A stretch of DNA of 51,277 nt, taken from Escherichia phage tonnikala. The notes beneath the pieces are model-generated. The model saw only the letters and a program-made list of their open reading frames with translations, was not told where the DNA came from and did no database searches. The stretch lies in sequence record NC_049817.1; one strand, 5' to 3'. The translations under genes were made by a program, and so were the position numbers. Position 1 is the stretch's first letter. Each line of letters begins with the position of its first letter. This document shows, piece after piece, positions 1-51,277 of this stretch.

Positions 1-541
1 CATGCACCAGGTGACAAGGTAGCGCGTGAATGTATCGACCATCCTTGACGCCGCAATCATAATGACAATCTTCCGGCGGATATATCCCCTCATAAACGCT
101 TAAGGGTGTGCGATCGAATTTTAATGTTTTTGCCATCACTTTTTCGCAGCATTCATGACTTGCCTGTTTCCCGAACGAGTAGCCAGAAGAACGTGAAGCG
201 CGCTTGTTTGCTCTGATCCTGTAATCTTGTGGCACTTTGCCGAGGAAGCGGCCCAAAATGTTGATGGCCTCGCTGTAAGGTTCGCCAGTTAATTTCATTA
301 ACCAACCGATCCCTGTGTCGTTACCGCATACGTTGCAGATCGCGCCGCCGTCGCCCTCTTCATTTAGCTTATCAGTCCATCTAAAACGATCCTTACCGCC
401 GCAGTGTGGGCAAGGCTGATGCTTTTTGTTGAAAACATCGCTATGCAGTCCGCAAATGCTTTGTAGTGCTTCACGCCATAACCCCTTCATATATGGCAAA
501 ACATCTTCTTTCTGATAGGTCATAAAGTTTTCAGTATTCAT
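1..541 (-). CDS. DNA primase, N-terminal zinc-binding domain (partial; gene continues past window start)
   Basis: Open minus-strand frame from ATG at 539-541 to window edge, not in ORF track. Translation begins MNTENFMTYQ and has CPHCGG...CNVCG zinc-ribbon cysteines typical of primase-helicase zinc-binding domains. Confidence 0.6.
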   Translation of the reverse strand, partial: MNTENFMTYQKEDVLPYMKGLWREALQSICGLHSDVFNKKHQPCPHCGGKDRFRWTDKLNEEGDGGAICNVCGNDTGIGWLMKLTGEPYSEAINILGRFLGKVPQDYRIRANKRASRSSGYSFGKQASHECCEKVMAKTLKFDRTPLSVYEGIYPPEDCHYDCGVKDGRYIHALPCHLVH

Positions 542-550
542 AGCAACCTC

Positions 551-588
551 AATAAAAAAGCCCAGCAAATATTATCATTTCGCTGGGC
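551..588 (-). terminator. rho-independent terminator-like hairpin
   Basis: GCCCAGC...GCTGGGC stem followed on the minus strand by a T-run, just downstream of the 596..1072 gene. Confidence 0.4.
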
Positions 589-595
589 CTTATCA

Positions 596-1072
596 TTAGC
601 TATTCGTGCTGTTATCACCTTTGTAGAATCGTCCGCCTGGTTCGTAGTCTGAATTTTTGACTACGCGCAACATTTCGTATTTGTCGCAACGGGTAGTAAG
701 AGGCTTGCCGTTAGAATCAAACCGCAGATCTGGACGACAAAACGAGGCGCGGTATCCTTTGCATCCATTATATTTGTAGTCGTTATGCACCTTTTGTGCT
801 CCAGCGGCTGAAATCATACCACGCTTTCGCCATTGGTTAACAACTTGCTGAGATACGCGCAGACGTCGAGCCATAGCAGGAACGCCGCCGTAATACTCGA
901 TCAGAATGTCAAGGCGAGATTTCAGGCTTGCTTTTACCTCATCTCGCAGGATAAGAAATCCGGTTCGGTGTTTTCGTGGCTTTTTGTCTTTACCTCGTCG
1001 CGTTCCGTTGTTACCGTTAATAGTGCGCTTGTCGATCTCACCCGTAGATACTGCAATTCGTGCATCTTTCAT
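596..1072 (-). CDS. helix-turn-helix DNA-binding protein (Cro/YdaS-like)
   Basis: 158 aa ORF with HTH-like segment AMARRLRVSQQVVNQWRKRG and basic N-terminus; sits between primase and helicase. Confidence 0.5.
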   Translation of the reverse strand: MKDARIAVSTGEIDKRTINGNNGTRRGKDKKPRKHRTGFLILRDEVKASLKSRLDILIEYYGGVPAMARRLRVSQQVVNQWRKRGMISAAGAQKVHNDYKYNGCKGYRASFCRPDLRFDSNGKPLTTRCDKYEMLRVVKNSDYEPGGRFYKGDNSTNS

Positions 1073-3157: not shown

Positions 3158-3576
3158 TGGCTATAACTGATAAAGGCGATTATCTTGAGTTTTACGAAAG
3201 GGATCCAACCGACACGAGAAGGGAAGTTAATCACCAGATAGATAGTTTTCAGTGGTTGACTTATGCTCATCCTTATTTGCTGGCGTGGCATACGGTAAAC
3301 GAGAATGAGAAGTCTAAAGTAACGGCGATGATTGATCAGCAGTCCGGCTTGGTTAAGGGAGTAAGCGATTTCATCATCCTGATTGGTTTAAACGGAAAAT
3401 ACCCCTTTGCAGCGATTGAGATCAAACGAGTGAATAAATCAGGCAAGGGGAAAGCATCACCAGTCAGCGATGAACAAAAGGCTTTTTTGCGTCGCGTTCG
3501 CAGCTTAGGAGGATTCGCTGCGGTAGCCTACGGATTCAATCAGTTTAAGTTGGCTATTGAATACATGCTTAAATAG
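3157..3576 (+). CDS. VRR-NUC domain nuclease (PD-(D/E)XK fold)
   Basis: 139 aa; D...EIK core (DFIILIG...AAIEIKR); start overlaps helicase stop (TAATG). Confidence 0.6.
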   Translation: MAITDKGDYLEFYERDPTDTRREVNHQIDSFQWLTYAHPYLLAWHTVNENEKSKVTAMIDQQSGLVKGVSDFIILIGLNGKYPFAAIEIKRVNKSGKGKASPVSDEQKAFLRRVRSLGGFAAVAYGFNQFKLAIEYMLK

Positions 3577-3592
3577 CACTTTTTGTTAAAAC
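3574..3592 (+). promoter_or_regulatory. conserved intergenic motif copy TAGCACTTTTTGTTAAAAC
   Basis: TAG of motif is the stop codon of the VRR-NUC gene; GC hairpin and CATAAT follow 18 nt downstream. Confidence 0.45.
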
Positions 3593-7596: not shown

Positions 7597-7779
7597 TTAT
7601 TCGATACGCTTTACAGTAACCAACAAAACGCCGTCTTCATCACACAAATTATGCTCTGATATATCAAACGCTCGCATGTCAGAATGAATGAGCGTTAACA
7701 TTGCGTGCATGAAGTCGTCATGTGAGATTTGAGAAGTGGCGCAAAATTTAAGAATTTCATCTATCAGTTTACTTTCCAT
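7597..7779 (-). CDS. hypothetical small protein
   Basis: Minus ORF; start trimmed to internal ATG (MESKL...) to reduce overlap with HNH gene; no good RBS seen. Confidence 0.3.
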   Translation of the reverse strand: MESKLIDEILKFCATSQISHDDFMHAMLTLIHSDMRAFDISEHNLCDEDGVLLVTVKRIE

Positions 7780-8242
7780 GATTTTTGTGGTAGCCAAATT
7801 TAACCTCCGCCTGTTCCCTTGCCTTAATTGCATCATCAAGACTTAAAAAATATCCTAAATGCACGCTCTTACCGTTATCATATATAGTTGCGTGCCATCT
7901 TTTGTTTTTCTTATTCCAGCAAACACCAACTCGACCAGAGTTATTTCTTTTTAGTAGAGATACGTTTTTGCTGTTATCTAATCTTGATGCAAGCCTTAGA
8001 TTTTCAATTCTGTTATCGCTCCTATTGTGCCATATATGGTCTATTTCCATTCCTTCTGGTATTTTTCCATTGTGCATTTCCCATATTATCCTATGCGCCA
8101 AAAACAATACACCATTATACCTTATTCTCACATATCCATTTTCACATACACATCCCGCAACGCTTCCAGGCTTTGCTTTCCCTCTTCTGTTTCTCCATCT
8201 CAATATTCCATTGTCATATATAAATACTTCATTCCAATCCAT
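7769..8242 (-). CDS. HNH homing endonuclease with AP2-like DNA-binding domain
   Basis: 157 aa; HNH core EIDHIWHNRSDNRIENLR; C-terminal AP2-like segment; gene lies in a visibly AT-rich stretch. Confidence 0.75.
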   Translation of the reverse strand: MDWNEVFIYDNGILRWRNRRGKAKPGSVAGCVCENGYVRIRYNGVLFLAHRIIWEMHNGKIPEGMEIDHIWHNRSDNRIENLRLASRLDNSKNVSLLKRNNSGRVGVCWNKKNKRWHATIYDNGKSVHLGYFLSLDDAIKAREQAEVKFGYHKNHGK

Positions 8243-10927: not shown

Positions 10928-10946
10928 CTTTTAACAAAAAGTGCTA
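10928..10946 (-). promoter_or_regulatory. conserved intergenic motif copy (minus orientation)
   Basis: Reverse complement TAGCACTTTTTGTTAAAAG; overlaps stop of the methyltransferase-like gene. Confidence 0.4.
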
Positions 10947-11654
10947 TTTTGAGTTTGACTCAAAGATGGCGCGAGCAAAGCCGCGCGGAGTGAGGGAGCG
11001 GATCATCTTTGTGCGCGATGACTTACCGCCAGTTTTGGCCCAGCCTGGATTATCTTTGTCTTCCTCTTTCGGCAGGATTAAAGCGCGCGGAGGAATAACA
11101 AAGCCGTTGCCAGTCCAGAGGCACGTTTTCTTAAAATAGCGATCCCGTGCCGGAATAATATCAGGGAAGTCGGGATGTTTATCATCTTCCGGCAGATAGC
11201 CAGCGTAATCGCACGGATGGAACGTATAATCAGGCTTACGCCATAACGTTGACAACTTGCCAACCGGATTTTCGATCATGTAAGGAACACCGAAATAATC
11301 AGCTATATCAGCCGCGATTCTGCAAGTGTCGGCGGCCTCATCCTGGAATGATGGATTCTCAAGGCGTTTTTTGGCCCAATGGCGAGATCCGCTATTTGCA
11401 AGGTCGGTGCATGGTGGGAAGGCCATAATAAAATCAGGATTGCCCCACTCATTATTGATTGCCTTAACATAAAAAGCATCATCAATCCAGACGTTAACGT
11501 ATTCGATATTCTCATGCTGTATGCGCACTGACTGGTAATCACCGTGATCGCCACCGTCAGCATTAAAGCAAATGCACTTATAGCCATTATCAGCCCAATC
11601 TTTAACGGCTTTACCAGATCCATCAAATAGGGAGAATATTAAACCTTTATACAT
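10944..11654 (-). CDS. DNA C5-cytosine methyltransferase-like protein (short, atypical)
   Basis: Motif I-like SLFDGSG, catalytic Pro-Cys (AFPPCTD), ENV-like MIENPVG; start set at MYKG with GAGG RBS. Confidence 0.55.
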   Translation of the reverse strand: MYKGLIFSLFDGSGKAVKDWADNGYKCICFNADGGDHGDYQSVRIQHENIEYVNVWIDDAFYVKAINNEWGNPDFIMAFPPCTDLANSGSRHWAKKRLENPSFQDEAADTCRIAADIADYFGVPYMIENPVGKLSTLWRKPDYTFHPCDYAGYLPEDDKHPDFPDIIPARDRYFKKTCLWTGNGFVIPPRALILPKEEDKDNPGWAKTGGKSSRTKMIRSLTPRGFARAIFESNSK

Positions 11655-12983: not shown

Positions 12984-13391
12984 TTATTCCGTGGTGTCGA
13001 TAGTGATTGGCCGCAACTCCTGGAGCGTCACACGATGATCGCGAATAATTGATTCTTTATCTTTCAGGCCATTGTAGCAATTTTGCGCTCTCTTTTTAAA
13101 ATGGCCTGCATAACAAAGGGTGGCCCGTCCATTCTCGCGATTAGTTGCAATTACGCGGTAAATAGGCCGTAATTCCTCTTCAAATACTGGTCGGAAAGCG
13201 TAACTTTCAAAGCCAGTGCCATAGAATCGGTTATCATCGTCACGCGAGATGTAAAGAGGTTCGCGATAATCATCAAGAACATACTCATCGCCATATTTTT
13301 CATCGCGCAATACGGCGTATTCAGCGCCTTTTGTGAAAGTCCATGCGTGACTGGTGTTTTCGCCAATGAATTTAAGAGACTGCGATACCAT
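12984..13391 (-). CDS. hypothetical protein
   Basis: 135 aa. Confidence 0.5.
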   Translation of the reverse strand: MVSQSLKFIGENTSHAWTFTKGAEYAVLRDEKYGDEYVLDDYREPLYISRDDDNRFYGTGFESYAFRPVFEEELRPIYRVIATNRENGRATLCYAGHFKKRAQNCYNGLKDKESIIRDHRVTLQELRPITIDTTE

Positions 13392-13405
13392 TTTTTGATC
13401 TCCTG

Positions 13406-13633
13406 TTAGTAAGTGATTGAAGAAATATCATCAAAGCCCTGGAATTCCGCATTCCATACCAGGAAGTTTGAGAGATTCTCACAACGATACCAGCCGCCGC
13501 TCAATTCCATGTATGTAGCATAACCGCCATGGATAGCCTTAACAGCGTAGCGCTTATGGTTGCGAGTGATGAAAATCGCAAAACGTTTGTCGTTTGTCTG
13601 GTCGATTGCTTTCTGGTTGGCGACTACTGACAT
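13406..13633 (-). CDS. hypothetical protein
   Basis: 75 aa. Confidence 0.45.
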   Translation of the reverse strand: MSVVANQKAIDQTNDKRFAIFITRNHKRYAVKAIHGGYATYMELSGGWYRCENLSNFLVWNAEFQGFDDISSITY

Positions 13634-15569: not shown

Positions 15570-15597
15570 TTGACACGCACCAAATAGCTTTTATAAT
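15570..15597 (+). promoter_or_regulatory. sigma-70-type promoter for rightward early operon
   Basis: TTGACA (15570-15575), 16-nt spacer, TATAAT (15592-15597); about 30 nt upstream of the first rightward gene. Confidence 0.55.
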
Positions 15598-15628
15598 GCG
15601 CCAACAGTCAACAACTGGAGGAAAGGAA

Positions 15629-16093
15629 ATGGAACAGAAGACCACTAAGGACTATTGCGATTGGCTTCGCGAGCTTGGTCGCCGCCTGGCTAGTGGCGAT
15701 ATTGAAGAGTATAAAATGTCACTAATTGACCTGGCCGGAATGTTAAGCGGTGACGACTGCTACAAGATCACGCGCAGTTCATCCTACAGCCGGACCATTA
15801 TCAACCGCGTTCCAGAAGTAAGGGCCGCAGGTCGGGTAAGCATCAAGGTAGAGGAAACGGAAGATGATAAATTTTACGTTTTCCGCATGGTCCGAGAATC
15901 GAAAAGGAAAATCATCACGCCCGAAGAATTGCCAGCCATCAAGGCAAGGGCGATCAAAAAGTTTGCCGATCGCTTACTGGCAGCAATCCCGAACATCGTG
16001 GACCTGGAAGGGGATAAACTGGCTGGAGCTTGTGAGGGCGTAAGCCGCTACCAGGATATGATCCGCGAAATCATCAAAGAGGAGGAGCAATAA
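15629..16093 (+). CDS. hypothetical protein, first gene of rightward early operon
   Basis: Start set at MEQKTTKDY with GGAGG RBS; the track start at 15596 lies inside the promoter -10. Confidence 0.55.
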   Translation: MEQKTTKDYCDWLRELGRRLASGDIEEYKMSLIDLAGMLSGDDCYKITRSSSYSRTIINRVPEVRAAGRVSIKVEETEDDKFYVFRMVRESKRKIITPEELPAIKARAIKKFADRLLAAIPNIVDLEGDKLAGACEGVSRYQDMIREIIKEEEQ

Positions 16094-16365
16094 TGAAAAA
16101 GGCGTTAATCGGCGTTTTGGTGGCAATGGCATTCCTGACCGGATGCAAAGAAGATGGCGCGCATGTTGGCAATGTGCAGATGGCTAACCCTGGCGATGAC
16201 TACAGCGTAAGGGAGCTATTCACCGCTGACGGTTGCACCGTTTACCGATTCTATGACGGTCGCACTGTTTACTTCACCAACTGCAAGGGCACGACTAGCT
16301 GGGAAGTGTCGAAAAGCAATGGCAAAGGCACGAAGACAGAACATATGACCGTCGAGACAAAATAG
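16093..16365 (+). CDS. small lipoprotein
   Basis: Signal peptide with lipobox (MKKALIGVLVAMAFLTGC); 90 aa. Confidence 0.55.
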   Translation: MKKALIGVLVAMAFLTGCKEDGAHVGNVQMANPGDDYSVRELFTADGCTVYRFYDGRTVYFTNCKGTTSWEVSKSNGKGTKTEHMTVETK

Positions 16366-16381
16366 CACTTTTTGTTAAAAC
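16363..16381 (+). promoter_or_regulatory. conserved intergenic motif copy
   Basis: TAG of motif is the stop codon; hairpin GCCAGGC-GCGAA-GCCTGGC then CATAAT 18 nt downstream. Confidence 0.45.
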
Positions 16382-18113: not shown

Positions 18114-18551
18114 ATGTACATTAAAAAGAAGATGAAATGCGTTTCCGTTAACTATGCTTGCTCTGGCATGTTCAAGCCTGGCGAAATCTATACGGCGCAA
18201 AAACTGAAAACATCAACCGGATCTTTTTACGTGAGCAATAGTAAGGGGCATCGCATGTTCCTGAACGGCGGCGAAGGCACTAAGGTTATGGCACACGCTA
18301 TGGTAATGGCTGAATTTGAGGAAGTGAAAGATGAAAACAATAAGCGCGTCAAGCACAGGTTTACTGATAACCACGGCGACGCGATTGATGTATACAAGTT
18401 CGGCGATCGCGTGTTTATTGATGGCACGTTTGAATGTGGGCGTAGGCCGGATTTTAGGTCGATACTTACCGTTGACCAAGTGCGCAAGCTGGCAGATAAG
18501 TTAAATGATCTGGCAGATGAAATAGAATACAAACAAATCCATTTTAATTGA
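18114..18551 (+). CDS. hypothetical protein
   Basis: Start set at MYIKKKMK with AGGAG RBS; 145 aa. Confidence 0.5.
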   Translation: MYIKKKMKCVSVNYACSGMFKPGEIYTAQKLKTSTGSFYVSNSKGHRMFLNGGEGTKVMAHAMVMAEFEEVKDENNKRVKHRFTDNHGDAIDVYKFGDRVFIDGTFECGRRPDFRSILTVDQVRKLADKLNDLADEIEYKQIHFN

Positions 18552-18562
18552 TAGGTTTGATA

Positions 18563-19273
18563 ATGAAAAAATACACTTTCGAACTGTGGGGCAAGAAGTA
18601 CGAATTAATCACCAGCAAGCCGATTGTTATCGTTGACCTGGACGGAACACTATCGGACGGATCGCATCGTTTGCATTTGCTGCCAACTGAAAACTTGCAC
18701 CTTACGGAATCGTGGCGCGAGTTTAACAGGGCCGCCGCCGGAGATTCACCGATTAAAAGCACTATCGCGGTTATTAACGGTTTATGGGTGTCGGGATTTG
18801 CCATCGTCATCTTGACCGGACGCAGCGACGAGGTTCGCTATGAAACCTGCAAATGGTTGAATGAGAACGGCGTGAAGTTTGACGAAATCATCATGCGCCG
18901 CCAGGAGGACAACCGAAAGGATACGGTTATTAAAGAAGAAGCCTTGCGCGCTATTGGCCTGGACAACATTGTTTGCGCCTTTGACGATTCGCCGAACGTG
19001 GTTAAGCACTTCCGCAGCTTGGGGATCACAACCTATCAGGTCACGGAATACGACAAGCCACACGCTCACATACAATCTCACGGCGTGGAATCAATAAAGA
19101 TCACGAAGCGCGCCCTATTCGTCGGCAGCAAAGACAGCCTGGTCAATGCCAGCTTTATCAAAGGCAAGGTTTATGATGTTCATAGCCATGATAAAAACCG
19201 ATTCTTTTTGTGGGATGAAAAAGGTTTTGGCTGGTGCTTTGAACACGACGACGGCGATTTTGTTAATGCGTAA
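18563..19273 (+). CDS. HAD-superfamily phosphatase, polynucleotide 3'-phosphatase-like
   Basis: HAD motif I VIVDLDGTLSD, motif II ILTGRSD, motif III K...AFDDS; extra C-terminal domain of about 70 aa. Confidence 0.6.
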   Translation: MKKYTFELWGKKYELITSKPIVIVDLDGTLSDGSHRLHLLPTENLHLTESWREFNRAAAGDSPIKSTIAVINGLWVSGFAIVILTGRSDEVRYETCKWLNENGVKFDEIIMRRQEDNRKDTVIKEEALRAIGLDNIVCAFDDSPNVVKHFRSLGITTYQVTEYDKPHAHIQSHGVESIKITKRALFVGSKDSLVNASFIKGKVYDVHSHDKNRFFLWDEKGFGWCFEHDDGDFVNA

Positions 19274-19292
19274 TAGCACTTTTTGTTAAAAC
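19274..19292 (+). promoter_or_regulatory. conserved intergenic motif copy
   Basis: Directly after TAA stop; TATAGT 18 nt downstream within a GGGCTTGCGG...AAGCCC hairpin. Confidence 0.45.
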
Positions 19293-19347
19293 ATCTCAAC
19301 GGGCTTGCGGTATAGTAAGCCCATCAACAACAAACGAGGATTAAATC

Positions 19348-19611
19348 ATGGCTAACAAGATCGAATTTTTTAAAGCGGTAGACATTATCGACGGCGCGCC
19401 TAGCTTCTTCGCTATCCATTCTATTGACGGCAAGGATATTGGGTACAACGTTATCCGTCGAGATGGAATATCAAAACTTAGTGACCTGGTAGGCCATATT
19501 GTGTCAATCGGGAAATGCGCATGGCCCGATTCGCCACGAGAGCCGCGCCGCCGCGACATGATTAATCCTGAATTGCTTTACACGCTGGTAGTAGAGGGAG
19601 AAAATAAATGA
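19348..19611 (+). CDS. hypothetical protein
   Basis: 87 aa; RBS-like GAGGA upstream. Confidence 0.45.
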   Translation: MANKIEFFKAVDIIDGAPSFFAIHSIDGKDIGYNVIRRDGISKLSDLVGHIVSIGKCAWPDSPREPRRRDMINPELLYTLVVEGENK

Positions 19612-19793
19612 TTTGGTTACTTGCTTTTTTGGTTGTTTTTCTTTACATTTCAGGCTTGTTTACGTTCCGCGCGTTGGTGAAATATTCCGACACGACAGAC
19701 AAAGACGACAAAATCGTTCTCGCTTTCTGGTTTGTTTGGGTGTGGTTAGCAATTTACGAGATCATCAGAGACAAACAGAAATTTGAGTGGTGA
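19608..19793 (+). CDS. small membrane protein (two predicted TM helices)
   Basis: 61 aa; hydrophobic stretches WLLAFLVVFLYISGLF and LAFWFVWVWLAIY; ATGA overlap with upstream gene. Confidence 0.45.
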   Translation: MIWLLAFLVVFLYISGLFTFRALVKYSDTTDKDDKIVLAFWFVWVWLAIYEIIRDKQKFEW

Positions 19794-19851
19794 TTCTTGC
19801 TATGGCGCATTCATGCAGTGCGCCATGTTGAGAAAACCTAAAGGGGGAAAT

Positions 19852-19995
19852 GATGCGTAACTTTGAAAAAATCATTACCAAAAAGAAGCGTCGCGGGTAC
19901 GATGAGCATGTGGAGTTTGTGAACAAGCAGCGCAAGAAGCGCCATAGACGCGAAATGCTGCATAATATCAACTCACGCTATGGAGGAAACTAAAT
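19852..19995 (+). CDS. hypothetical small basic protein (47 aa, below track cutoff)
   Basis: ATG after AAGGGGGA; translation MMRNFEKIITKKKRRGY...; stop abuts next ATG. Confidence 0.3.
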
Positions 19996-30910: not shown

Positions 30911-30928
30911 GTTTAACAAAAAGTGCTA
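30911..30928 (-). promoter_or_regulatory. conserved motif copy in reverse orientation upstream of capsid gene
   Basis: GTTTAACAAAAAGTGCTA on + strand, followed by terminator hairpin and capsid RBS. Confidence 0.4.
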
Positions 30929-30935
30929 TCATCTA

Positions 30936-34662: not shown

Positions 34663-34681
34663 CTTTTAACAAAAAGTGCTA
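34663..34681 (-). promoter_or_regulatory. conserved motif copy in reverse orientation abutting RBS of tail chaperone gene
   Basis: CTTTTAACAAAAAGTGCTA followed directly by AAGGAG and ATG at 34697. Confidence 0.4.
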
Positions 34682-34696
34682 TAAGGAGATCTTGAG

Positions 34697-44040: not shown

Positions 44041-44046
44041 AAAAAA

Positions 44047-44061
44047 GGGGGCGTAGCCCCC
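44047..44061. terminator. bidirectional terminator
   Basis: GGGGGC-GTA-GCCCCC hairpin flanked by A-run (5') and T-rich (3') between converging genes. Confidence 0.5.
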
Positions 44062-44068
44062 TTTAATT

Positions 44069-44683
44069 TTAATCATAGTGTGATGCATTTATAACCAAAA
44101 CAGATGAAGCGGTGTAAATACCAACAGGTCCAGGGGTTTGTGCAACCTGCCTGGAAAAAGAGTAGATCCCGTTACCATACGCGGCAGCTTGAGACTCAAA
44201 AATCATAAATCCACCTAAAGCCGGATTAGGTACAGAGTTTAACGCTGTTAGTGATGGCATTATTGCGCAAGGGTAGCCCAGGTTAACATCAAACGCGATC
44301 CCGCTCACACCAACTTGCTTTGCATCAAGCGGCCTCATTTTTCCATGATAAACCATTTCACCATGAGCGTTATAAAACGCTATGCCGTGACTACCTGGAG
44401 GAGTCACCATGTTACTAAAAGCATAAACAATAACCTCCCCTTGATTATCAGATCTATCAATTCTTATTGCGTGCCTTCCACCATTGTTAAATTGCGTAAA
44501 TGATATGTATGATTTAGCAGTCAATCTAACAAAGAAAAAACATACCCTATCAACAGGAATTGACGAAGTAAAAACGGTTCCGGTATTAGCAGATATTACT
44601 GCCCGATCAATTAGATTAACTGGAGTGAAATCTGGACTTAACCATAACGATCCGTCTGATTTTTTTATACTCATCCCGTACAT
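44069..44683 (-). CDS. hypothetical protein (leftward module adjacent to tail genes)
   Basis: Start set at MYGMS with GGGGGTGA RBS; 204 aa; shares short sequence pattern with upstream 92-aa protein. Confidence 0.5.
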   Translation of the reverse strand: MYGMSIKKSDGSLWLSPDFTPVNLIDRAVISANTGTVFTSSIPVDRVCFFFVRLTAKSYISFTQFNNGGRHAIRIDRSDNQGEVIVYAFSNMVTPPGSHGIAFYNAHGEMVYHGKMRPLDAKQVGVSGIAFDVNLGYPCAIMPSLTALNSVPNPALGGFMIFESQAAAYGNGIYSFSRQVAQTPGPVGIYTASSVLVINASHYD

Positions 44684-44685
44684 TA

Positions 44686-44964
44686 TCACCCCCAAAAAGT
44701 ATATATATATCTTGAATCAGATCCAGAAAGCCCACTCCATGTAACGGTGTCGCCACTTACCCCTAAGTTTGGCGCCCCAGGGTCGCCACCGCGCCAGGAA
44801 TTCATGCCAACATATATTGCTTTCAATGATTTACCTGGCGGCCTGTTTTGGTAAGTCTTGCTACCTGATGGCTGAGTGAATTTATCAAGAAAGAAAACAG
44901 GCGTTAAAAGTCCTGTAACTTCCCTCCCTCGATCGTCATATATTGCATAACCATATTGCGCCAT
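44686..44964 (-). CDS. hypothetical protein
   Basis: 92 aa, Gly-rich. Confidence 0.45.
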   Translation of the reverse strand: MAQYGYAIYDDRGREVTGLLTPVFFLDKFTQPSGSKTYQNRPPGKSLKAIYVGMNSWRGGDPGAPNLGVSGDTVTWSGLSGSDSRYIYTFWG

Positions 44965-45239
44965 TAATTACACCTCAAATCAATAAATTTACTTTCATTT
45001 TGCCAGCGGTTGATAAATTTAACTTCTTTATTGTCAACGCTCAACCTGTATTGCTTTTGGCTGAATCTGTTTTCGCGGACTGCATTAATTTTGACCTCAT
45101 GGAATCCGTTAACAGGGAATGTTTTAACGTTAAATTTTGCCGTGCAATCGATCTCTTTGAAGCCGCCAGTAGGCGACGCTGCGCATCCGGTCAGAGCGGC
45201 TACGGTGGCGATAACTGCGATTAATTTTTTCATCTTCAA
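44964..45239 (-). CDS. lipoprotein, candidate superinfection-exclusion protein
   Basis: Signal peptide plus lipobox (MKKLIAVIATVAALTGC); first gene of leftward operon next to tail-tip genes. Confidence 0.55.
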   Translation of the reverse strand: MKMKKLIAVIATVAALTGCAASPTGGFKEIDCTAKFNVKTFPVNGFHEVKINAVRENRFSQKQYRLSVDNKEVKFINRWQNESKFIDLRCN

Positions 45240-45288: not shown

Positions 45289-45306
45289 GTTTAGCAAAAA
45301 GTGCTA
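45289..45306 (-). promoter_or_regulatory. conserved motif copy (minus orientation, variant) heading leftward operon
   Basis: Reverse complement TAGCACTTTTTGCTAAAC, then 18 nt, then TATAGT, then AAGGAG RBS and ATG at 45239. Confidence 0.45.
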
Positions 45307-45677
45307 CTTGTTATTTTTTGTTTTTCGGTGTTATCGAATTTAAGACGGCGTAAATTTAGCTCAAATTTTAGCCAACATGAGAGCGATAAACAATCAATAA
45401 AATAGATATATACATATAAAATCAATAGTTTATTTATTTATGTATGTATATTTGTTTTTTCTTGTTATCTGTGTTTCTTGTGGTTTTGGTTGTTTGTGGT
45501 GATTTTTCTTTCTGAGTATCTGTATGTGCCATCATTCATGTGTATGTATATAATCCGGCGTATCTGAGAGAACAAAGGGAACAAGAAAAATAACACATAT
45601 TAATCATTGACTTACATTTCAAATTTGTTTTCTTGCAATCTAAGAACGTTTAGAAAACAGAAAAAACAAAACAACTA

Positions 45678-47824: not shown

Positions 47825-48271
47825 ATGCACGTTATTACAGGTGAGATCCGAAAAGAGCCAAAAGTAAAGCAAATGCCTAACGGTAGCACGCTATATGTTG
47901 TTGAGCTTTCCGAACGATATAAAGACCGTGAAGGCAATTGGCAGTATACAAACTATGTATTTTTCTTTAACGCGAAAACAGACGGCCTGAATGGTTGGTA
48001 TGCTGAGGCGTTCCAGGTAGGCAAGGTTATTTCTGTTTCCTGCGATACCTTGCGAGTTGAAACGCGAGAATACAACGGAAAGATTTACAGCACCGTGCAG
48101 CCTGGCGGATTTGCAAACTTGCTATTTAGCCAGCGTGGGGAAAGCCAGCAACAATATCAGCAGCGCACTCAAGGTGGATGGGGGCAACCACAACAGCAAC
48201 AAATCCCTCAACAGCAACCACAGCAAAGCAATCAGCCGCCGATTGACTTTGATGACGATATACCTTTCTGA
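47825..48271 (+). CDS. ssb: single-stranded DNA-binding protein
   Basis: OB-fold-like N-terminus, Gln/Pro-rich linker and acidic tip DFDDDIPF; AGGAG RBS before ATG at 47825. Confidence 0.8.
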   Translation: MHVITGEIRKEPKVKQMPNGSTLYVVELSERYKDREGNWQYTNYVFFFNAKTDGLNGWYAEAFQVGKVISVSCDTLRVETREYNGKIYSTVQPGGFANLLFSQRGESQQQYQQRTQGGWGQPQQQQIPQQQPQQSNQPPIDFDDDIPF

Positions 48272-48276
48272 TAAAA

Positions 48277-48296
48277 AGCCCCGCACATGCGGGGCT
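48277..48296. terminator. bidirectional rho-independent terminator
   Basis: AGCCCCGC-ACAT-GCGGGGCT flanked by A-run and TTTTTTTT; between converging ssb and tail fibre genes. Confidence 0.6.
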
Positions 48297-48301
48297 TTTT
48301 T

Positions 48302-50782
48302 TTAGTCTGTATCTGTTGGATTGTTGATTAATTTCGCTACCGCTTTTCTTAGATCATCTATCTCTTTCTCCATTTTCTCAATTTTCCCCCCCATGTAGAC
48401 CATAGCGCAAGCCATATCTGTTAGCATAACATTGCTATCTAGCGCCAATGTGTCATCATTTCTGTCAGTTTCAATCTGACGATCAATGTATTCCTCACCA
48501 TTTTCATCAACTCCAATCACATCCTCAAATACCGGCGAGCCTGGAACTAGCTTTACATATTGTGGATCGATTTTTAACAGATCTTGAGCTATCAGGCCAA
48601 AACGTTGAACATCAGATCCGTTATATTTAAACATAGCAGGCAACCATTGCATTACGCGATCGTAGCTTTCCTTTCCGTCTGTGTATTTAATGTCGTGTTT
48701 CAAATCACGATCGGACGTTGGGTTTTTTGCGAAAATAAAAGAACCTCCGCCGAAACCTTGCTCCCATGTAGTAATGTCACCAGCATATGTAAAATGATAA
48801 GCACGATGAAAACGACCATCACCATTTAACTTTAGCGCTACATCAGGCCACGCGGCATTTCCTTTTGATACAACACCAAGCCCAACTCGCATATGATAAC
48901 CGCCAGTTGATAAAGAGCCACCAGAAACAACAGGACTCCAACCAGAGTCATTGTTTGTAACTGAGTTTGCGTAGTATGGCGCCCCCATGTGATCCCATTC
49001 AAGACCCCATGCGCCTTGTACACACTGACCATTAAAACCACGCTGCGCAGTCATGTATCCACCGTAATCATTGTGGAATCTAAACTCTTTGACGTCAGAT
49101 CCTTGATTATTAACCAATACTTTTACATGGGCTATATCAGTAGAGCCGCCTCTTACAGCGCCAAATTGCCAGAATCCACCGTACCAGTTGCCTTGTAGCA
49201 AGTTTACCCATCCATAAGCTCCACCATCTCCTGATGCGTTTGTCAGGTAAATATCTTTATCACCTCCTTCGGCAGTTCCGCAGCCAACTCGCATTGCCTG
49301 TTTTGCAGTAATCCACCCGTTAGAGTAAAGCCCACCAGTTCCATTGATTTCAACATGATGTAGACCTGATAACTTTGAGTTTTCATCAAATTGCAGGTAT
49401 CCGTGCTTGTCTCCTTCATTGTTTGCTGTATGTATTGTTGTTTTCCATAATCCGCCTTGCTTTTCAGCGTATACCCGAGAATAACCCCGAGAAACACCAT
49501 CATCACCCTTTGCGTGTAAATTCAAGATTCCACTAAGCTCAGCAGCTCCAGCATATTGATGAACAAGATCTAGATCGGAAAATCTTGGTGTTTGTCTCTC
49601 ACCCAATCCAAGACCATCCCTAAACAAAAGAATATCGCGGATAACATAATCATTAATCGCATAGAATCCTGTGTTAGTTAAAACCATTGCCCTTACTTCT
49701 GTACATTCAGCGGCAGGATCTGTCGCACCAAACTTAAAAACTGTTGCGTTTTCAACAAAACCATCTGGCGCATAATCTGATGTTGGGACAACAACATCAA
49801 TATTGCTTTCACAGTGAATGCTAACAGGAAATGCGCCGCCTCGAATGTAAACTGCAAACGCCTTTTGTGTTGCTTTCGCTGGCATCAAAATAGAATCAAT
49901 AGTTCTTTCATCTTTCTGATAGATGGTGAAATTACCATAAACGCTATCAACGCCGTCAGACCATCCAGAAGTACGAGCATAGCCAGCAAATGACGCTGAA
50001 TTATAAGGATAATCACCAGTCCTATTACTAGTTGAGATCTGGAAGAAAACGCCTAATTGACTCATATCACCAACGTTCTTTTCTTGGAAGATCACAGGGT
50101 AATATTTTGCATCTTCCGCACCCGCTGGAGCGTTTACAGTTCTTTCGTATTTCCAGCCCTGATAACCTACAACTGCTTGATGCGCTCTATCAGCTTCCAT
50201 TTCGGCGCGGTTTGCTTGCTGCAATGCGTTGGCTGAATGGTTAGCAGCCTGATCTCGCGCCGAGTTAATTTCCGCTACCGCTGAATCTTTGATCTGTTGC
50301 GTTTGTTGCATGTAGCCTTTTGCTGATTCAGCATGATTAAAAGATTGACCAGCCCATGTTTGCGCGTTTTGTTCGCTTTGTGCTGCTGATGCCGCATTTC
50401 TCACTGTTTCATCACGTAAGTCAATCAGCTTTTGCAGATCAAAGTTCCTGAAAAATTCAATTGCTTCCTCTATCTGCGTTTCCTTGCTTTGATAGTAGCG
50501 CAGCGTTTCAGCTACATCTTGCGCCAGACCGTCAACAGTGATCGAGTCATGCAGTAAAATGATGTAATTGCTTCGCGCAATTTCAGATCCGCCAGTTGTG
50601 ATGGCGCGGATTTGCGTATCACTAATAACCTCACTGATTACCGCCGCCTGAAAAGGGGCGTCAATAAAAAATATTGTCGCACCTGGGCGAATCAAGGTTA
50701 ATTGCTCACGCCATTTTGTGTCGTAACCAGTTACATAACCTTGCGCGTCCATAGACGCTTGGCCTTGTCTGTAAATTGCCAT
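48302..50782 (-). CDS. tail fibre protein with C-terminal intramolecular chaperone (peptidase S74) domain
   Basis: 827 aa from ATG with AGGAGG RBS; C-terminal segment (DRDLKHDIKYTDG...RFGLIAQDL...) typical of S74 auto-cleaving chaperone domains. Confidence 0.7.
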   Translation of the reverse strand: MAIYRQGQASMDAQGYVTGYDTKWREQLTLIRPGATIFFIDAPFQAAVISEVISDTQIRAITTGGSEIARSNYIILLHDSITVDGLAQDVAETLRYYQSKETQIEEAIEFFRNFDLQKLIDLRDETVRNAASAAQSEQNAQTWAGQSFNHAESAKGYMQQTQQIKDSAVAEINSARDQAANHSANALQQANRAEMEADRAHQAVVGYQGWKYERTVNAPAGAEDAKYYPVIFQEKNVGDMSQLGVFFQISTSNRTGDYPYNSASFAGYARTSGWSDGVDSVYGNFTIYQKDERTIDSILMPAKATQKAFAVYIRGGAFPVSIHCESNIDVVVPTSDYAPDGFVENATVFKFGATDPAAECTEVRAMVLTNTGFYAINDYVIRDILLFRDGLGLGERQTPRFSDLDLVHQYAGAAELSGILNLHAKGDDGVSRGYSRVYAEKQGGLWKTTIHTANNEGDKHGYLQFDENSKLSGLHHVEINGTGGLYSNGWITAKQAMRVGCGTAEGGDKDIYLTNASGDGGAYGWVNLLQGNWYGGFWQFGAVRGGSTDIAHVKVLVNNQGSDVKEFRFHNDYGGYMTAQRGFNGQCVQGAWGLEWDHMGAPYYANSVTNNDSGWSPVVSGGSLSTGGYHMRVGLGVVSKGNAAWPDVALKLNGDGRFHRAYHFTYAGDITTWEQGFGGGSFIFAKNPTSDRDLKHDIKYTDGKESYDRVMQWLPAMFKYNGSDVQRFGLIAQDLLKIDPQYVKLVPGSPVFEDVIGVDENGEEYIDRQIETDRNDDTLALDSNVMLTDMACAMVYMGGKIEKMEKEIDDLRKAVAKLINNPTDTD

Positions 50783-50800
50783 TTGTAAAATCCTCCTAAA

Positions 50801-50819
50801 TAGCACTTTTTGCTAATGA
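50801..50819 (+). promoter_or_regulatory. conserved motif copy (variant) abutting RBS of the leftward tail fibre gene
   Basis: TAGCACTTTTTGCTAATGAC on + strand, immediately 5' (in gene sense) of the tail fibre RBS. Confidence 0.4.
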
Positions 50820-50847
50820 CAATGCAGATAATAGCATTTTCAAATGC

Positions 50848-50872
50848 AAAAAAAAACCCCGCATAAGCGGGG
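50848..50872 (-). terminator. rho-independent terminator (minus strand)
   Basis: CCCCGC-ATAA-GCGGGG hairpin with A-run on + strand (T-run on minus), downstream of the 50889.. gene. Confidence 0.55.
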
Positions 50873-50888
50873 TAATACTAGCGGAGTT

Positions 50889-51277
50889 TTATAGCAGTGA
50901 TTCGGGCTTGTAGAGTTTTCTTTCTACGCCCTGTTTAAAATTATCGTTAACAGGCATCATTATGTCAAGACCTCTTTCCTCTGCCGCGATTATCACATCA
51001 CGATCATCCTTCCGGCAGACTACGCGCATTCTTCTTTCTCCTTTATATCTATGCGCAACCATTTCAAGATTTGAAGGAGTAAAGCAAGCCCACACCTCTT
51101 GACCAGTTGATAAATGAACATGCTGGGAATCAACCCAATCAAGGCACAAATAGATCGTCTTATCCGTGCTACCTGTTTTAACAACAGATCCGCGCGTGTA
51201 GTCGCGAGCTAAAAACCAATCCTTTCCATCCTCATCAATGAAAAGCACGTTACACATTTCATCATCCACCAGGTGAC
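50889..51277 (-). CDS. hypothetical protein (5' end may lie beyond window)
   Basis: Open minus frame to window edge; track start at 51269 is GTG; internal ATG at 51255-51257. Confidence 0.4.
   Translation of the reverse strand, partial: HLVDDEMCNVLFIDEDGKDWFLARDYTRGSVVKTGSTDKTIYLCLDWVDSQHVHLSTGQEVWACFTPSNLEMVAHRYKGERRMRVVCRKDDRDVIIAAEERGLDIMMPVNDNFKQGVERKLYKPESLL

What the first reader, a model, noticed from the sequence alone, without database searches (positions are those of the whole stretch)
48302..50782. Tail fibre with S74 auto-chaperone encoded on the opposite strand, bracketed by bidirectional terminators
The fibre gene is isolated from the rightward structural operon: leftward, with a bidirectional terminator shared with ssb at its 3' end and the inverted motif at its 5' end. 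The C-terminal intramolecular chaperone domain and the separate transcription unit fit a swappable receptor-binding cassette.
Basis: partly seen in the sequence, partly recalled or inferred. Interest (0 to 1): 0.45.

Follow-up and report, generated by a model that had tools for sequence, protein, structure and literature searches.

The report
Known T1-like phage lateral tail fibre
This is the lateral tail-fibre gene of a T1-like coliphage almost identical to the published phage FritzSarasin; its self-cleaving folding domain and its variability between related phages are real but already described, so the finding is correct in outline and ordinary.

Summary
The window is a circularly permuted Warwickvirus genome (Drexlerviridae), 98.3% identical over the 21 kb compared to Escherichia phage FritzSarasin (Bas04). 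The gene at 48302-50782 (-) is the annotated 'lateral tail fiber protein' bas04_0030, at 99.9% nt identity. It encodes 826 aa:
- an N-terminal anchor shared across the family;
- a long helical shaft;
- a central domain;
- a distal tip about 49% identical to fibres of T5-like phages;
- a C-terminal Peptidase_S74 intramolecular chaperone, with S690 and K695 invariant.

The 3' hairpin shared with ssb is a true bidirectional terminator by sequence. The 5' hairpin terminates leftward only. It ends the upstream primase gene, which lies on the same strand as the fibre, so 'bracketed by bidirectional terminators' is half right. The 'inverted motif' is real and is a copy of the known T1-like intergenic repeat.

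Against four same-genus genomes, the fibre body is the largest block without nucleotide match. A phage of another genus (egaa) carries the same allele. This supports modular exchange, but the exchanged unit starts at about codon 116, not at the gene boundary. Maffei et al. 2021 already reported this.

The only new detail is a 43-aa in-frame shaft deletion between 13-bp direct repeats.

The parts
48302..50782 (-). Lateral tail fibre gene, 826 codons plus stop
   Evidence: ORF. 99.9% nt identity to FritzSarasin bas04_0030 'lateral tail fiber protein'. PHROG tail-fibre families, best E 7.9e-139.
50438..50782 (-). N-terminal anchor domain, aa 1-115: beta domain aa 1-76 plus first helix
   Evidence: tblastn finds it in 874 phage records, including 397 Klebsiella phages. 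aa 1-178 match the N-termini of Webervirus depolymerases 7lzj/7vyv/7vz3, E about 1e-45. The AF2 model gives strands at aa 5-76.
50168..50437 (-). Alpha-helical (coiled-coil-type) shaft, aa 116-205
   Evidence: The AF2 full-length model gives helices at 84-113 and 116-205, with pLDDT 65-87 over aa 110-190. Homologous N-termini form a triple-helix bundle in DpK2 (PMC8552709).
50247..50260 (-). Junction of a 129-bp (43-aa) in-frame deletion relative to FritzSarasin and five other records
   Evidence: Protein alignment. In FritzSarasin the deleted segment is bounded by a perfect 13-bp direct repeat, GCGCGAGATCAGG.
49643..50164 (-). Central domain, aa 207-380
   Evidence: 80% aa identity to the T5-like Citrobacter phage CitS1; about 38% to P1 and lambdoid side tail fibres. 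Poorly modelled, pLDDT about 30.
48716..49642 (-). Distal beta-rich tip, aa 381-689: presumed receptor-binding part of the mature fibre
   Evidence: About 49% aa identity to lateral tail fibres of T5-like phages, 254 records. pLDDT is mostly 77-95, mean 86, over this part in the model of aa 381-826.
48305..48715 (-). Intramolecular chaperone (Peptidase_S74) domain, aa 690-826. Ser690 codon at 48713-48715, Lys695 codon at 48698-48700
   Evidence: PF13884. S690, D691, R692 and K695 are invariant in 69 homologs. A profile matches solved chaperone domains 6f45, 8hqz_d, 7dc3 and 3gud.
48273..48300 (.). Bidirectional intrinsic terminator between the convergent ssb and fibre genes
   Evidence: The hairpin is conserved in four relatives, with a compensatory G-C to T-A change at the stem base in MikeNSara.
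50856..50873 (-). Leftward-only intrinsic terminator after the primase gene (stem CCCCGC/GCGGGG plus T9)
   Evidence: Conserved in Warwickvirus, Hanrivervirus, BabyEgg and Sazh. Annotated as a terminator in the Chapo and Sazh records.
50828..50836 (-). Candidate extended -10 promoter element TGCTATTAT for the fibre gene (inferred)
   Evidence: It lies between the terminator and the ribosome-binding site. TGCTATTATCTGC is conserved in KarlJaspers and in Klebsiella phage Sushi, where the upstream gene differs. The Chapo record annotates a promoter at this position. The pattern alone is not rarer than chance: 6 found against 4.4 expected.
50800..50816 (+). Inverted copy of the T1-like intergenic repeat (ATAGCACTTTTTGCTAA), abutting the fibre ribosome-binding site
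   Evidence: It matches the 21-nt repeat aaATAGCACnnnTTGnTAAAA described for TLS, T1 and Rtp (PMC11447400). It is also present before the fibre ribosome-binding site in Chapo and BabyEgg.
50792..50797 (-). Shine-Dalgarno sequence AGGAGG, 9 nt before the ATG
   Evidence: Read from the sequence.
47825..48271 (+). ssb gene, convergent neighbour (context)
   Evidence: PHROG 44, E 4e-26. Annotated in Bas04.
50889..51277 (-). 3' part of the DNA primase gene, upstream neighbour on the same strand. It continues at window 1-541 because the sequence is circularly permuted
   Evidence: PHROG 510. Bas04 annotation gives 930 nt, which equals 389 + 541.

Best explanation
The gene encodes the lateral tail fibre of a Warwickvirus (T1-like siphovirus).

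Shown:
- Its identity with the annotated FritzSarasin lateral tail fibre.
- Its domain order: family-wide N-terminal anchor (aa 1-115), helical shaft (to about aa 205), central domain (207-380), tip related to T5-like fibres (381-689), and S74 intramolecular chaperone (690-826).
- Its mosaic relationship to fibres of other phages.

Inferred from the family:
- Three chains assemble, with the C-terminal chaperone templating trimer folding.
- The Ser690/Lys695 dyad then cuts the chain at Ser690. This leaves a 689-residue mature fibre attached to the tail by its N-terminus.
- The tip makes the first, reversible contact with a surface glycan (LPS or O-antigen).
- Irreversible binding to BtuB is done by the separate receptor-binding locus downstream of the J-like gene.

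Inferred for expression: transcription runs leftward from a weak sigma-70 promoter with an extended -10 element, placed just after the primase terminator. It stops at the hairpin that also terminates ssb coming from the other side.

Evolution (shown by comparison): new specificities arise by recombination that replaces the segment from about codon 116 to the stop codon, or the tip and the chaperone separately. The homology arms are the conserved anchor and upstream region on one side and the terminator and ssb region on the other.
For: - Identity and synteny (ssb, then fibre and primase on the opposite strand).
- Domains.
- All five other alleles examined also carry PF13884.
- Variability and breakpoints. 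Flanks are 90-96% identical. There is no nucleotide match from 48303 (tiwna, Poky), 48331 (tonijn) or 48707 (MikeNSara) up to 50435. The 48707 breakpoint is codon 692, the chaperone junction. The 50435 breakpoint is codon 116.
- Cross-genus sharing. The egaa (Hanrivervirus) fibre body is 90% nt identical while its flanks are about 80%. Pieces are 84-86% nt identical to T5-like phages.
- Of 53 phage records that cover at least 80% of window 30000-51277, only six carry this allele at 99% or more.
- Terminators and promoter context.
- Literature. The locus is described as highly diverse with only its 5' end conserved (PMC8594841). A Drexlerviridae fibre is described as a coiled coil, a T5-like tip and a chaperone domain (PMC11990801). 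Bas04 receptors are listed as 'LPS / O-antigen?' and BtuB. Two residues in a Drexlerviridae fibre with the same chaperone domain change O-serotype range (PMC12090712).
Against: - No experiment on this protein shows cleavage, trimerisation, virion location or glycan binding.
- The solved T5 fibre tip did not appear in the sequence search of solved structures at E up to 1.
- Fold searches with the monomer model gave only non-specific beta-sheet matches.
- No canonical -35/-10 promoter was found upstream. The extended -10 pattern is not statistically unusual in itself.
- The phages carrying this allele were mostly isolated on K-12, which lacks O-antigen. The allele therefore cannot be linked to a host range from these data.
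Confidence: 0.9

Rival explanations
1. The fibre gene has no promoter of its own. It is expressed by partial read-through of the primase terminator, as the last gene of the leftward regulator-primase-fibre string.
For: All three genes share a strand and are adjacent. The consensus scan found no sigma-70 promoter in the 106-nt gap. TGNTATWAT is no rarer than chance.
Against: The hairpin with a T9 tail is a strong terminator by sequence. The 74 nt between it and the ATG are 96-100% conserved within the genus. TGCTATTATCTGC persists in two other genera, including Sushi, where the upstream gene is ssb rather than primase. The Chapo record annotates a promoter there. A structural gene would normally be timed differently from a primase.
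Confidence: 0.25
2. The protein is an enzymatic tailspike (a polysaccharide depolymerase or esterase) rather than a binding fibre.
For: Its N-terminus is homologous to those of solved Klebsiella phage capsule depolymerases. S74 chaperones were first found on endosialidases.
Against: The homology to the depolymerases stops at residue 178. No hydrolase, lyase or beta-helix family is detected by Pfam or NCBIfam. The distal part is homologous to lateral fibres of T5-like phages.
Confidence: 0.05
3. The variability reflects relaxed constraint on a dispensable gene, not exchange of specificity modules.
For: Lateral fibres are not needed on K-12, the isolation host of most relatives (PMC8594841). The window itself carries a 43-aa deletion.
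Against: All alleles are intact ORFs that keep the anchor and the S74 dyad. Boundaries are sharp and coincide with domain junctions. The same allele is found at 90% identity in another genus whose flanks are only 80% identical. Segments are shared with T5-like phages. These patterns indicate recombination rather than drift.
Confidence: 0.07

Closest known systems
Lateral tail fiber protein bas04_0030 (QXV79387.1) of Escherichia phage FritzSarasin, Warwickvirus, BASEL collection
   Same: 99.9% nt identity. Same neighbours, same terminators and same upstream region.
   Different: The window lacks 43 residues of the helical shaft, a 129-bp deletion between 13-bp direct repeats. It also has two amino-acid changes, K/N and S/A.
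L-shaped / lateral tail fibres of T5-like phages (T5 pb1, DT57C-type LtfA, PDB 8hqz chain d)
   Same: A distal tip followed by a self-cleaving S74 chaperone. The tip is about 49% aa identical to many T5-like fibres. The chaperone segment is 85-86% nt identical to EscoHU1 LtfA and Klebsiella phage 150049. The presumed role is reversible binding to O-antigen.
   Different: The N-terminal attachment domain is different and the shaft is much shorter. The solved T5 tip itself was not detected by sequence.
Capsule depolymerase tailspikes of Klebsiella Webervirus phages (DpK2 7lzj; Depo32 7vyv/7vz3)
   Same: Homologous N-terminal anchor and start of the helical bundle, aa 1-178, E about 1e-45. Both belong to the Drexlerviridae.
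   Different: Beyond residue 178 those proteins carry a catalytic beta-helix instead of a fibre tip with an S74 chaperone. In Sushi the gene follows ssb on the same strand.
Intramolecular chaperone of K1F endosialidase, GA-1 neck appendage (3gud), S16 gp37 (6f45) and MYRF (7dc3)
   Same: The S74 domain has a serine and a lysine five residues apart and a terminal long helix.
   Different: The upstream passenger domain is different. No cleavage data exist for this protein.

Membership tests
Peptidase S74 / intramolecular chaperone auto-processing domain | Match to the family profile above the curated threshold | tested here: met
   PF13884: 34.5 bits against a cut-off of 22, aa 690-744.
Peptidase S74 / intramolecular chaperone auto-processing domain | Catalytic serine and a lysine five residues downstream | tested here: met
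   S690 and K695 (motif TSDRDLK) are invariant in 69 homologs and in six Drexlerviridae alleles. The dyad spacing is from established knowledge of endosialidase and MYRF.
Peptidase S74 / intramolecular chaperone auto-processing domain | Similarity to solved chaperone domains | tested here: met
   The profile of the C-terminal 250 aa hits 6f45 (3e-15), 8hqz_d (1e-9), 7dc3 (4e-6) and 3gud (5e-3). Fold searches with the monomer model were uninformative.
Peptidase S74 / intramolecular chaperone auto-processing domain | Autoproteolytic release of the domain after trimer folding | not testable with these tools
   Needs protein chemistry: SDS-PAGE or mass spectrometry of wild type against S690A.
Drexlerviridae lateral tail fibre | Family-wide conserved N-terminal attachment domain | tested here: met
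   aa 1-115 are found in 874 phage records, 873 of them covering at least 80% of the query. The feature is described in PMC8594841 S1C Fig.
Drexlerviridae lateral tail fibre | Position between the recombination/ssb module and the primase/helicase module | tested here: met
   The order is the same in FritzSarasin, MikeNSara, tiwna, Poky, tonijn and egaa.
Drexlerviridae lateral tail fibre | Virion component that binds a surface glycan reversibly | not testable with these tools
   The literature itself marks this as presumed: 'LPS / O-antigen?' for Bas04.
T5 pb1-type receptor-binding tip | Detectable similarity to the solved T5 tip (PDB 4UW7/4UW8) | tested here: inconclusive
Bidirectional intrinsic terminator | G+C-rich hairpin flanked by an A-run and a T-run between convergent genes | tested here: met
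   Met for 48273-48300. The 5' hairpin at 50856-50873 fails: it has a T-run on the minus strand only.

The most novel reading that the evidence does not exclude
The flanking signals may be more than plain punctuation. Three observations point this way.

1. The stem CCCCGC-N4-GCGGGG occurs only twice in the genome, at the two hairpins on either side of the fibre gene (0.03 expected). These could act as short recombination handles that define the cassette.
2. The copy of the T1-like intergenic repeat at 50800-50816 has near-dyad symmetry (TAGCA-N5-TGCTA). It sits between the candidate -10 element and the ribosome-binding site.
3. About 15 forward copies sit a fixed 20-21 nt upstream of a -10-like hexamer.

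One phage DNA-binding protein could therefore activate the forward promoters and hold back the fibre gene. It might do the same at the major capsid and tape-measure-chaperone genes, which carry the other two inverted copies. That would give a temporal switch. The function of this repeat is an openly stated question for T1-like phages (PMC11447400).
Probability: 0.1. Interest if true: 0.45.

Novelty: already known. Interest (0 to 1): 0.1.

Why it matters
It matters little as a discovery. The gene, its chaperone domain, its position and its hypervariability are all in the published description of the BASEL Drexlerviridae. It is useful for annotation and engineering. The breakpoints at about codon 116, about codon 692 and the stop codon show where a fibre can be swapped while keeping tail attachment and expression signals. 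The natural 43-aa shaft deletion shows that shaft length can vary between otherwise near-identical intact alleles; whether the shortened fibre is functional was not tested.

Full report
**What the window is.** Megablast of window 30000-51277 against the phage collection gives Escherichia phage FritzSarasin (Bas04; Drexlerviridae, Tempevirinae, Warwickvirus) at 100% coverage and 98.3% identity. Dozens of other Warwickvirus genomes follow at 95-98%. The window is a circular permutation of such a genome. The primase ORF that runs off the right end (50889-51277, minus strand) continues at 1-541. The two parts add up to the 930 nt annotated in Bas04.

**The observation: the gene.**
- The ORF at 48302-50782 (minus strand) has 826 codons. 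AGGAGG lies 9 nt before the ATG.
- It matches the FritzSarasin gene bas04_0030, 'lateral tail fiber protein', at 99.9% nt identity.
- Pfam places Peptidase_S74 at aa 690-744, above the curated threshold.
- A profile of the C-terminal 250 residues of six Drexlerviridae alleles hits solved intramolecular chaperone domains: S16 gp37 (6f45), an L-shaped tail fibre (8hqz_d), MYRF (7dc3) and the GA-1 appendage (3gud).
- Ser690 and Lys695 are invariant in 69 homologs.

The gene and the chaperone are therefore real.

**The observation: the terminators.** The hairpin between the stop codons of ssb and the fibre (48273-48300) folds strongly on both strands and has a T-run on each. It is bidirectional by sequence. 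It is conserved in relatives, with one compensatory stem change.

The upstream hairpin (50856-50873) has a T9 tail only in the leftward direction. It sits 15 nt after the primase stop codon, so it is the primase terminator and not a bidirectional one.

**The observation: strand and motif.** The fibre is opposite to the structural operon, but it shares its strand with the primase gene and a regulator gene.

The 'inverted motif' is a copy of ATAGCACTTTTTGYTAA at 50800-50816 on the + strand. The window holds 20 copies against 1.85 expected. This is the 21-nt intergenic repeat already described for TLS, T1 and Rtp (PMC11447400).

**Anatomy of the protein.**
- aa 1-115, anchor. It is found in 874 phage records, including 397 Klebsiella phages. 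Together with the start of the shaft (to aa 178) it is homologous to the N-termini of the solved Webervirus depolymerases 7lzj, 7vyv and 7vz3.
- aa 84-205, shaft. It is modelled as long helices. The homologous part of DpK2 is a triple-helix bundle (PMC8552709).
- aa 207-380, central domain. It is 80% identical to a T5-like Citrobacter phage protein and about 38% to P1 and lambdoid side fibres.
- aa 381-689, distal tip. It is a confidently modelled beta-rich region, about 49% identical to lateral fibres of many T5-like phages.
- aa 690-826, the chaperone.

Relative to FritzSarasin and five other records, the window lacks 43 residues of the shaft. The 129-bp deletion is bounded by a 13-bp direct repeat.

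**Variability.** I compared the whole window with four Warwickvirus genomes and one Hanrivervirus genome.

| Relative | Where nucleotide similarity stops, coming in from the ssb side |
|---|---|
| tiwna, Poky | the fibre stop codon (about 48302) |
| tonijn | 48330 |
| MikeNSara | 48706 (codon 692, the chaperone junction) |

- For all four Warwickviruses, similarity resumes at 50435-50438, which is codon 116.
- The flanks are 90-96% identical.
- This 2.1-kb block is by far the largest block without match. The others are a homing-endonuclease ORF and a few small ORFs.
- The receptor-binding locus after the J-like gene is conserved among these relatives.
- All alleles keep the S74 domain.
- The Hanrivervirus egaa carries the same allele at 90% nt identity, although its flanks are only about 80% identical.
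- Pieces of the gene are 84-86% nt identical to T5-like phages.
- Gene position is constant throughout.

This supports modular exchange. The exchanged modules begin inside the gene, and the expression signals form part of the conserved arms.

**Expression.** The 74 nt between the primase terminator and the fibre ATG are almost invariant within the genus. They contain TGCTATTAT, an extended -10 pattern. TGCTATTATCTGC is kept in a Hanrivervirus and in Klebsiella phage Sushi, where the upstream gene is different. The Chapo record annotates a terminator and a promoter in the same place.

The pattern alone is not statistically unusual, and no canonical promoter was found. No transcript data were found in the paper search I ran. 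A separate late transcript is therefore the likeliest reading but remains an inference.

**Function.** By family knowledge, the chaperone drives trimer folding and then cuts itself off at Ser690. The mature fibre attaches by its N-terminus and makes reversible contact with a surface glycan.

The BASEL tables list 'LPS / O-antigen?' as the primary receptor and BtuB as the terminal receptor of FritzSarasin. The terminal receptor is assigned to the locus after the J-like gene. Point changes in a homologous Drexlerviridae fibre alter O-serotype range (PMC12090712).

**Comparison with what is known.** Maffei et al. 2021 state that the Drexlerviridae lateral tail fibre locus lies between conserved recombination and primase/helicase genes. 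They also state that it is very diverse and that only its 5' end is conserved. Humolli et al. 2025 describe a Drexlerviridae fibre as an N-terminal coiled coil, a T5-like tip and a C-terminal chaperone. The finding is therefore already known. The shaft deletion is the only new detail.

**Open side issue.** Most forward copies of the repeat lie a fixed 20-21 nt upstream of a -10-like hexamer, which fits a promoter-associated element. Three copies are inverted relative to the local genes. They lie before the major capsid gene, before the tape-measure chaperone gene and before the fibre gene. The two hairpins flanking the fibre share a stem found nowhere else in the genome. Whether either feature has a regulatory or recombinational role is untested.

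Noticed in passing
window, 20 sites, e.g. 3573-3589 (+), 10931-10947 (-), 16362-16378 (+), 45291-45307 (-): The repeat ATAGCACTTTTTGTTAA occurs 20 times against 1.85 expected. At about 15 of the 17 copies that point in the direction of transcription, 20-21 nt follow the repeat, often GC-rich and hairpin-forming. Then comes a -10-like hexamer (CATAAT, TATAAT or TATAGT), then about 35 nt, a ribosome-binding site and a start codon. It looks like a phage promoter class with an upstream element. Its function is an open question in the TLS paper (PMC11447400).
   Followed up: partly
window 30913-30929 (-) and 34666-34682 (-): Two further copies of the repeat are inverted relative to the rightward late operon. 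One lies before the major capsid gene. The other directly abuts the ribosome-binding site of the tape-measure chaperone gene, after the terminator that follows the major tail gene. Both have a weak -10-like hexamer 21 nt downstream on the minus strand, so they are possible antisense promoters.
   Followed up: partly
window 50247-50260: A 129-bp in-frame deletion (43 aa of the helical shaft) relative to FritzSarasin, NorthRox and mar001J1. In those genomes it is bounded by the 13-bp direct repeat GCGCGAGATCAGG. The exact 826-aa protein is not on record in public assemblies.
   Followed up: yes
window 48279-48294 and 50857-50872: The two hairpins flanking the fibre gene share the stem CCCCGC-N4-GCGGGG. 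This stem occurs nowhere else in the window (0.03 expected by chance).
   Followed up: partly
window 7769-8242 (-): A 157-aa ORF with HNH-type endonuclease motifs is absent from all five relatives compared. It is probably a mobile homing endonuclease.
   Followed up: no
window 12984-13633 (-) and 15596-16093 (+): Small ORFs that are absent from all relatives compared (12984-13633) or from some of them (15596-16093). These are accessory-gene variable spots.
   Followed up: no
L006 (egaa) 18162-19986: Phage egaa has the same fibre allele followed by its own terminator. Four extra genes without Pfam matches lie between the fibre and ssb. The window lacks them.
   Followed up: partly
window 44044-44064: A second hairpin, with only a partial T-tract on the + strand, lies between the J-like gene and the leftward receptor-binding/Cor cluster (44069-45239). 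This is the locus that the literature links to the terminal receptor, BtuB in FritzSarasin.
   Followed up: partly
phage collection hits H142, H143: About 20 records named 'Campylobacter phage' carry this Drexlerviridae fibre N-terminus at up to 96% identity. They are about 50 kb and T1-like, so the host labels look doubtful.
   Followed up: no
window 556-600 (-): Between the regulator and primase genes, a weak copy of the repeat (two mismatches) is followed by a hairpin with a T-run. A GATAAT lies in the hairpin loop, so promoter-like and terminator-like signals are nested.
   Followed up: no
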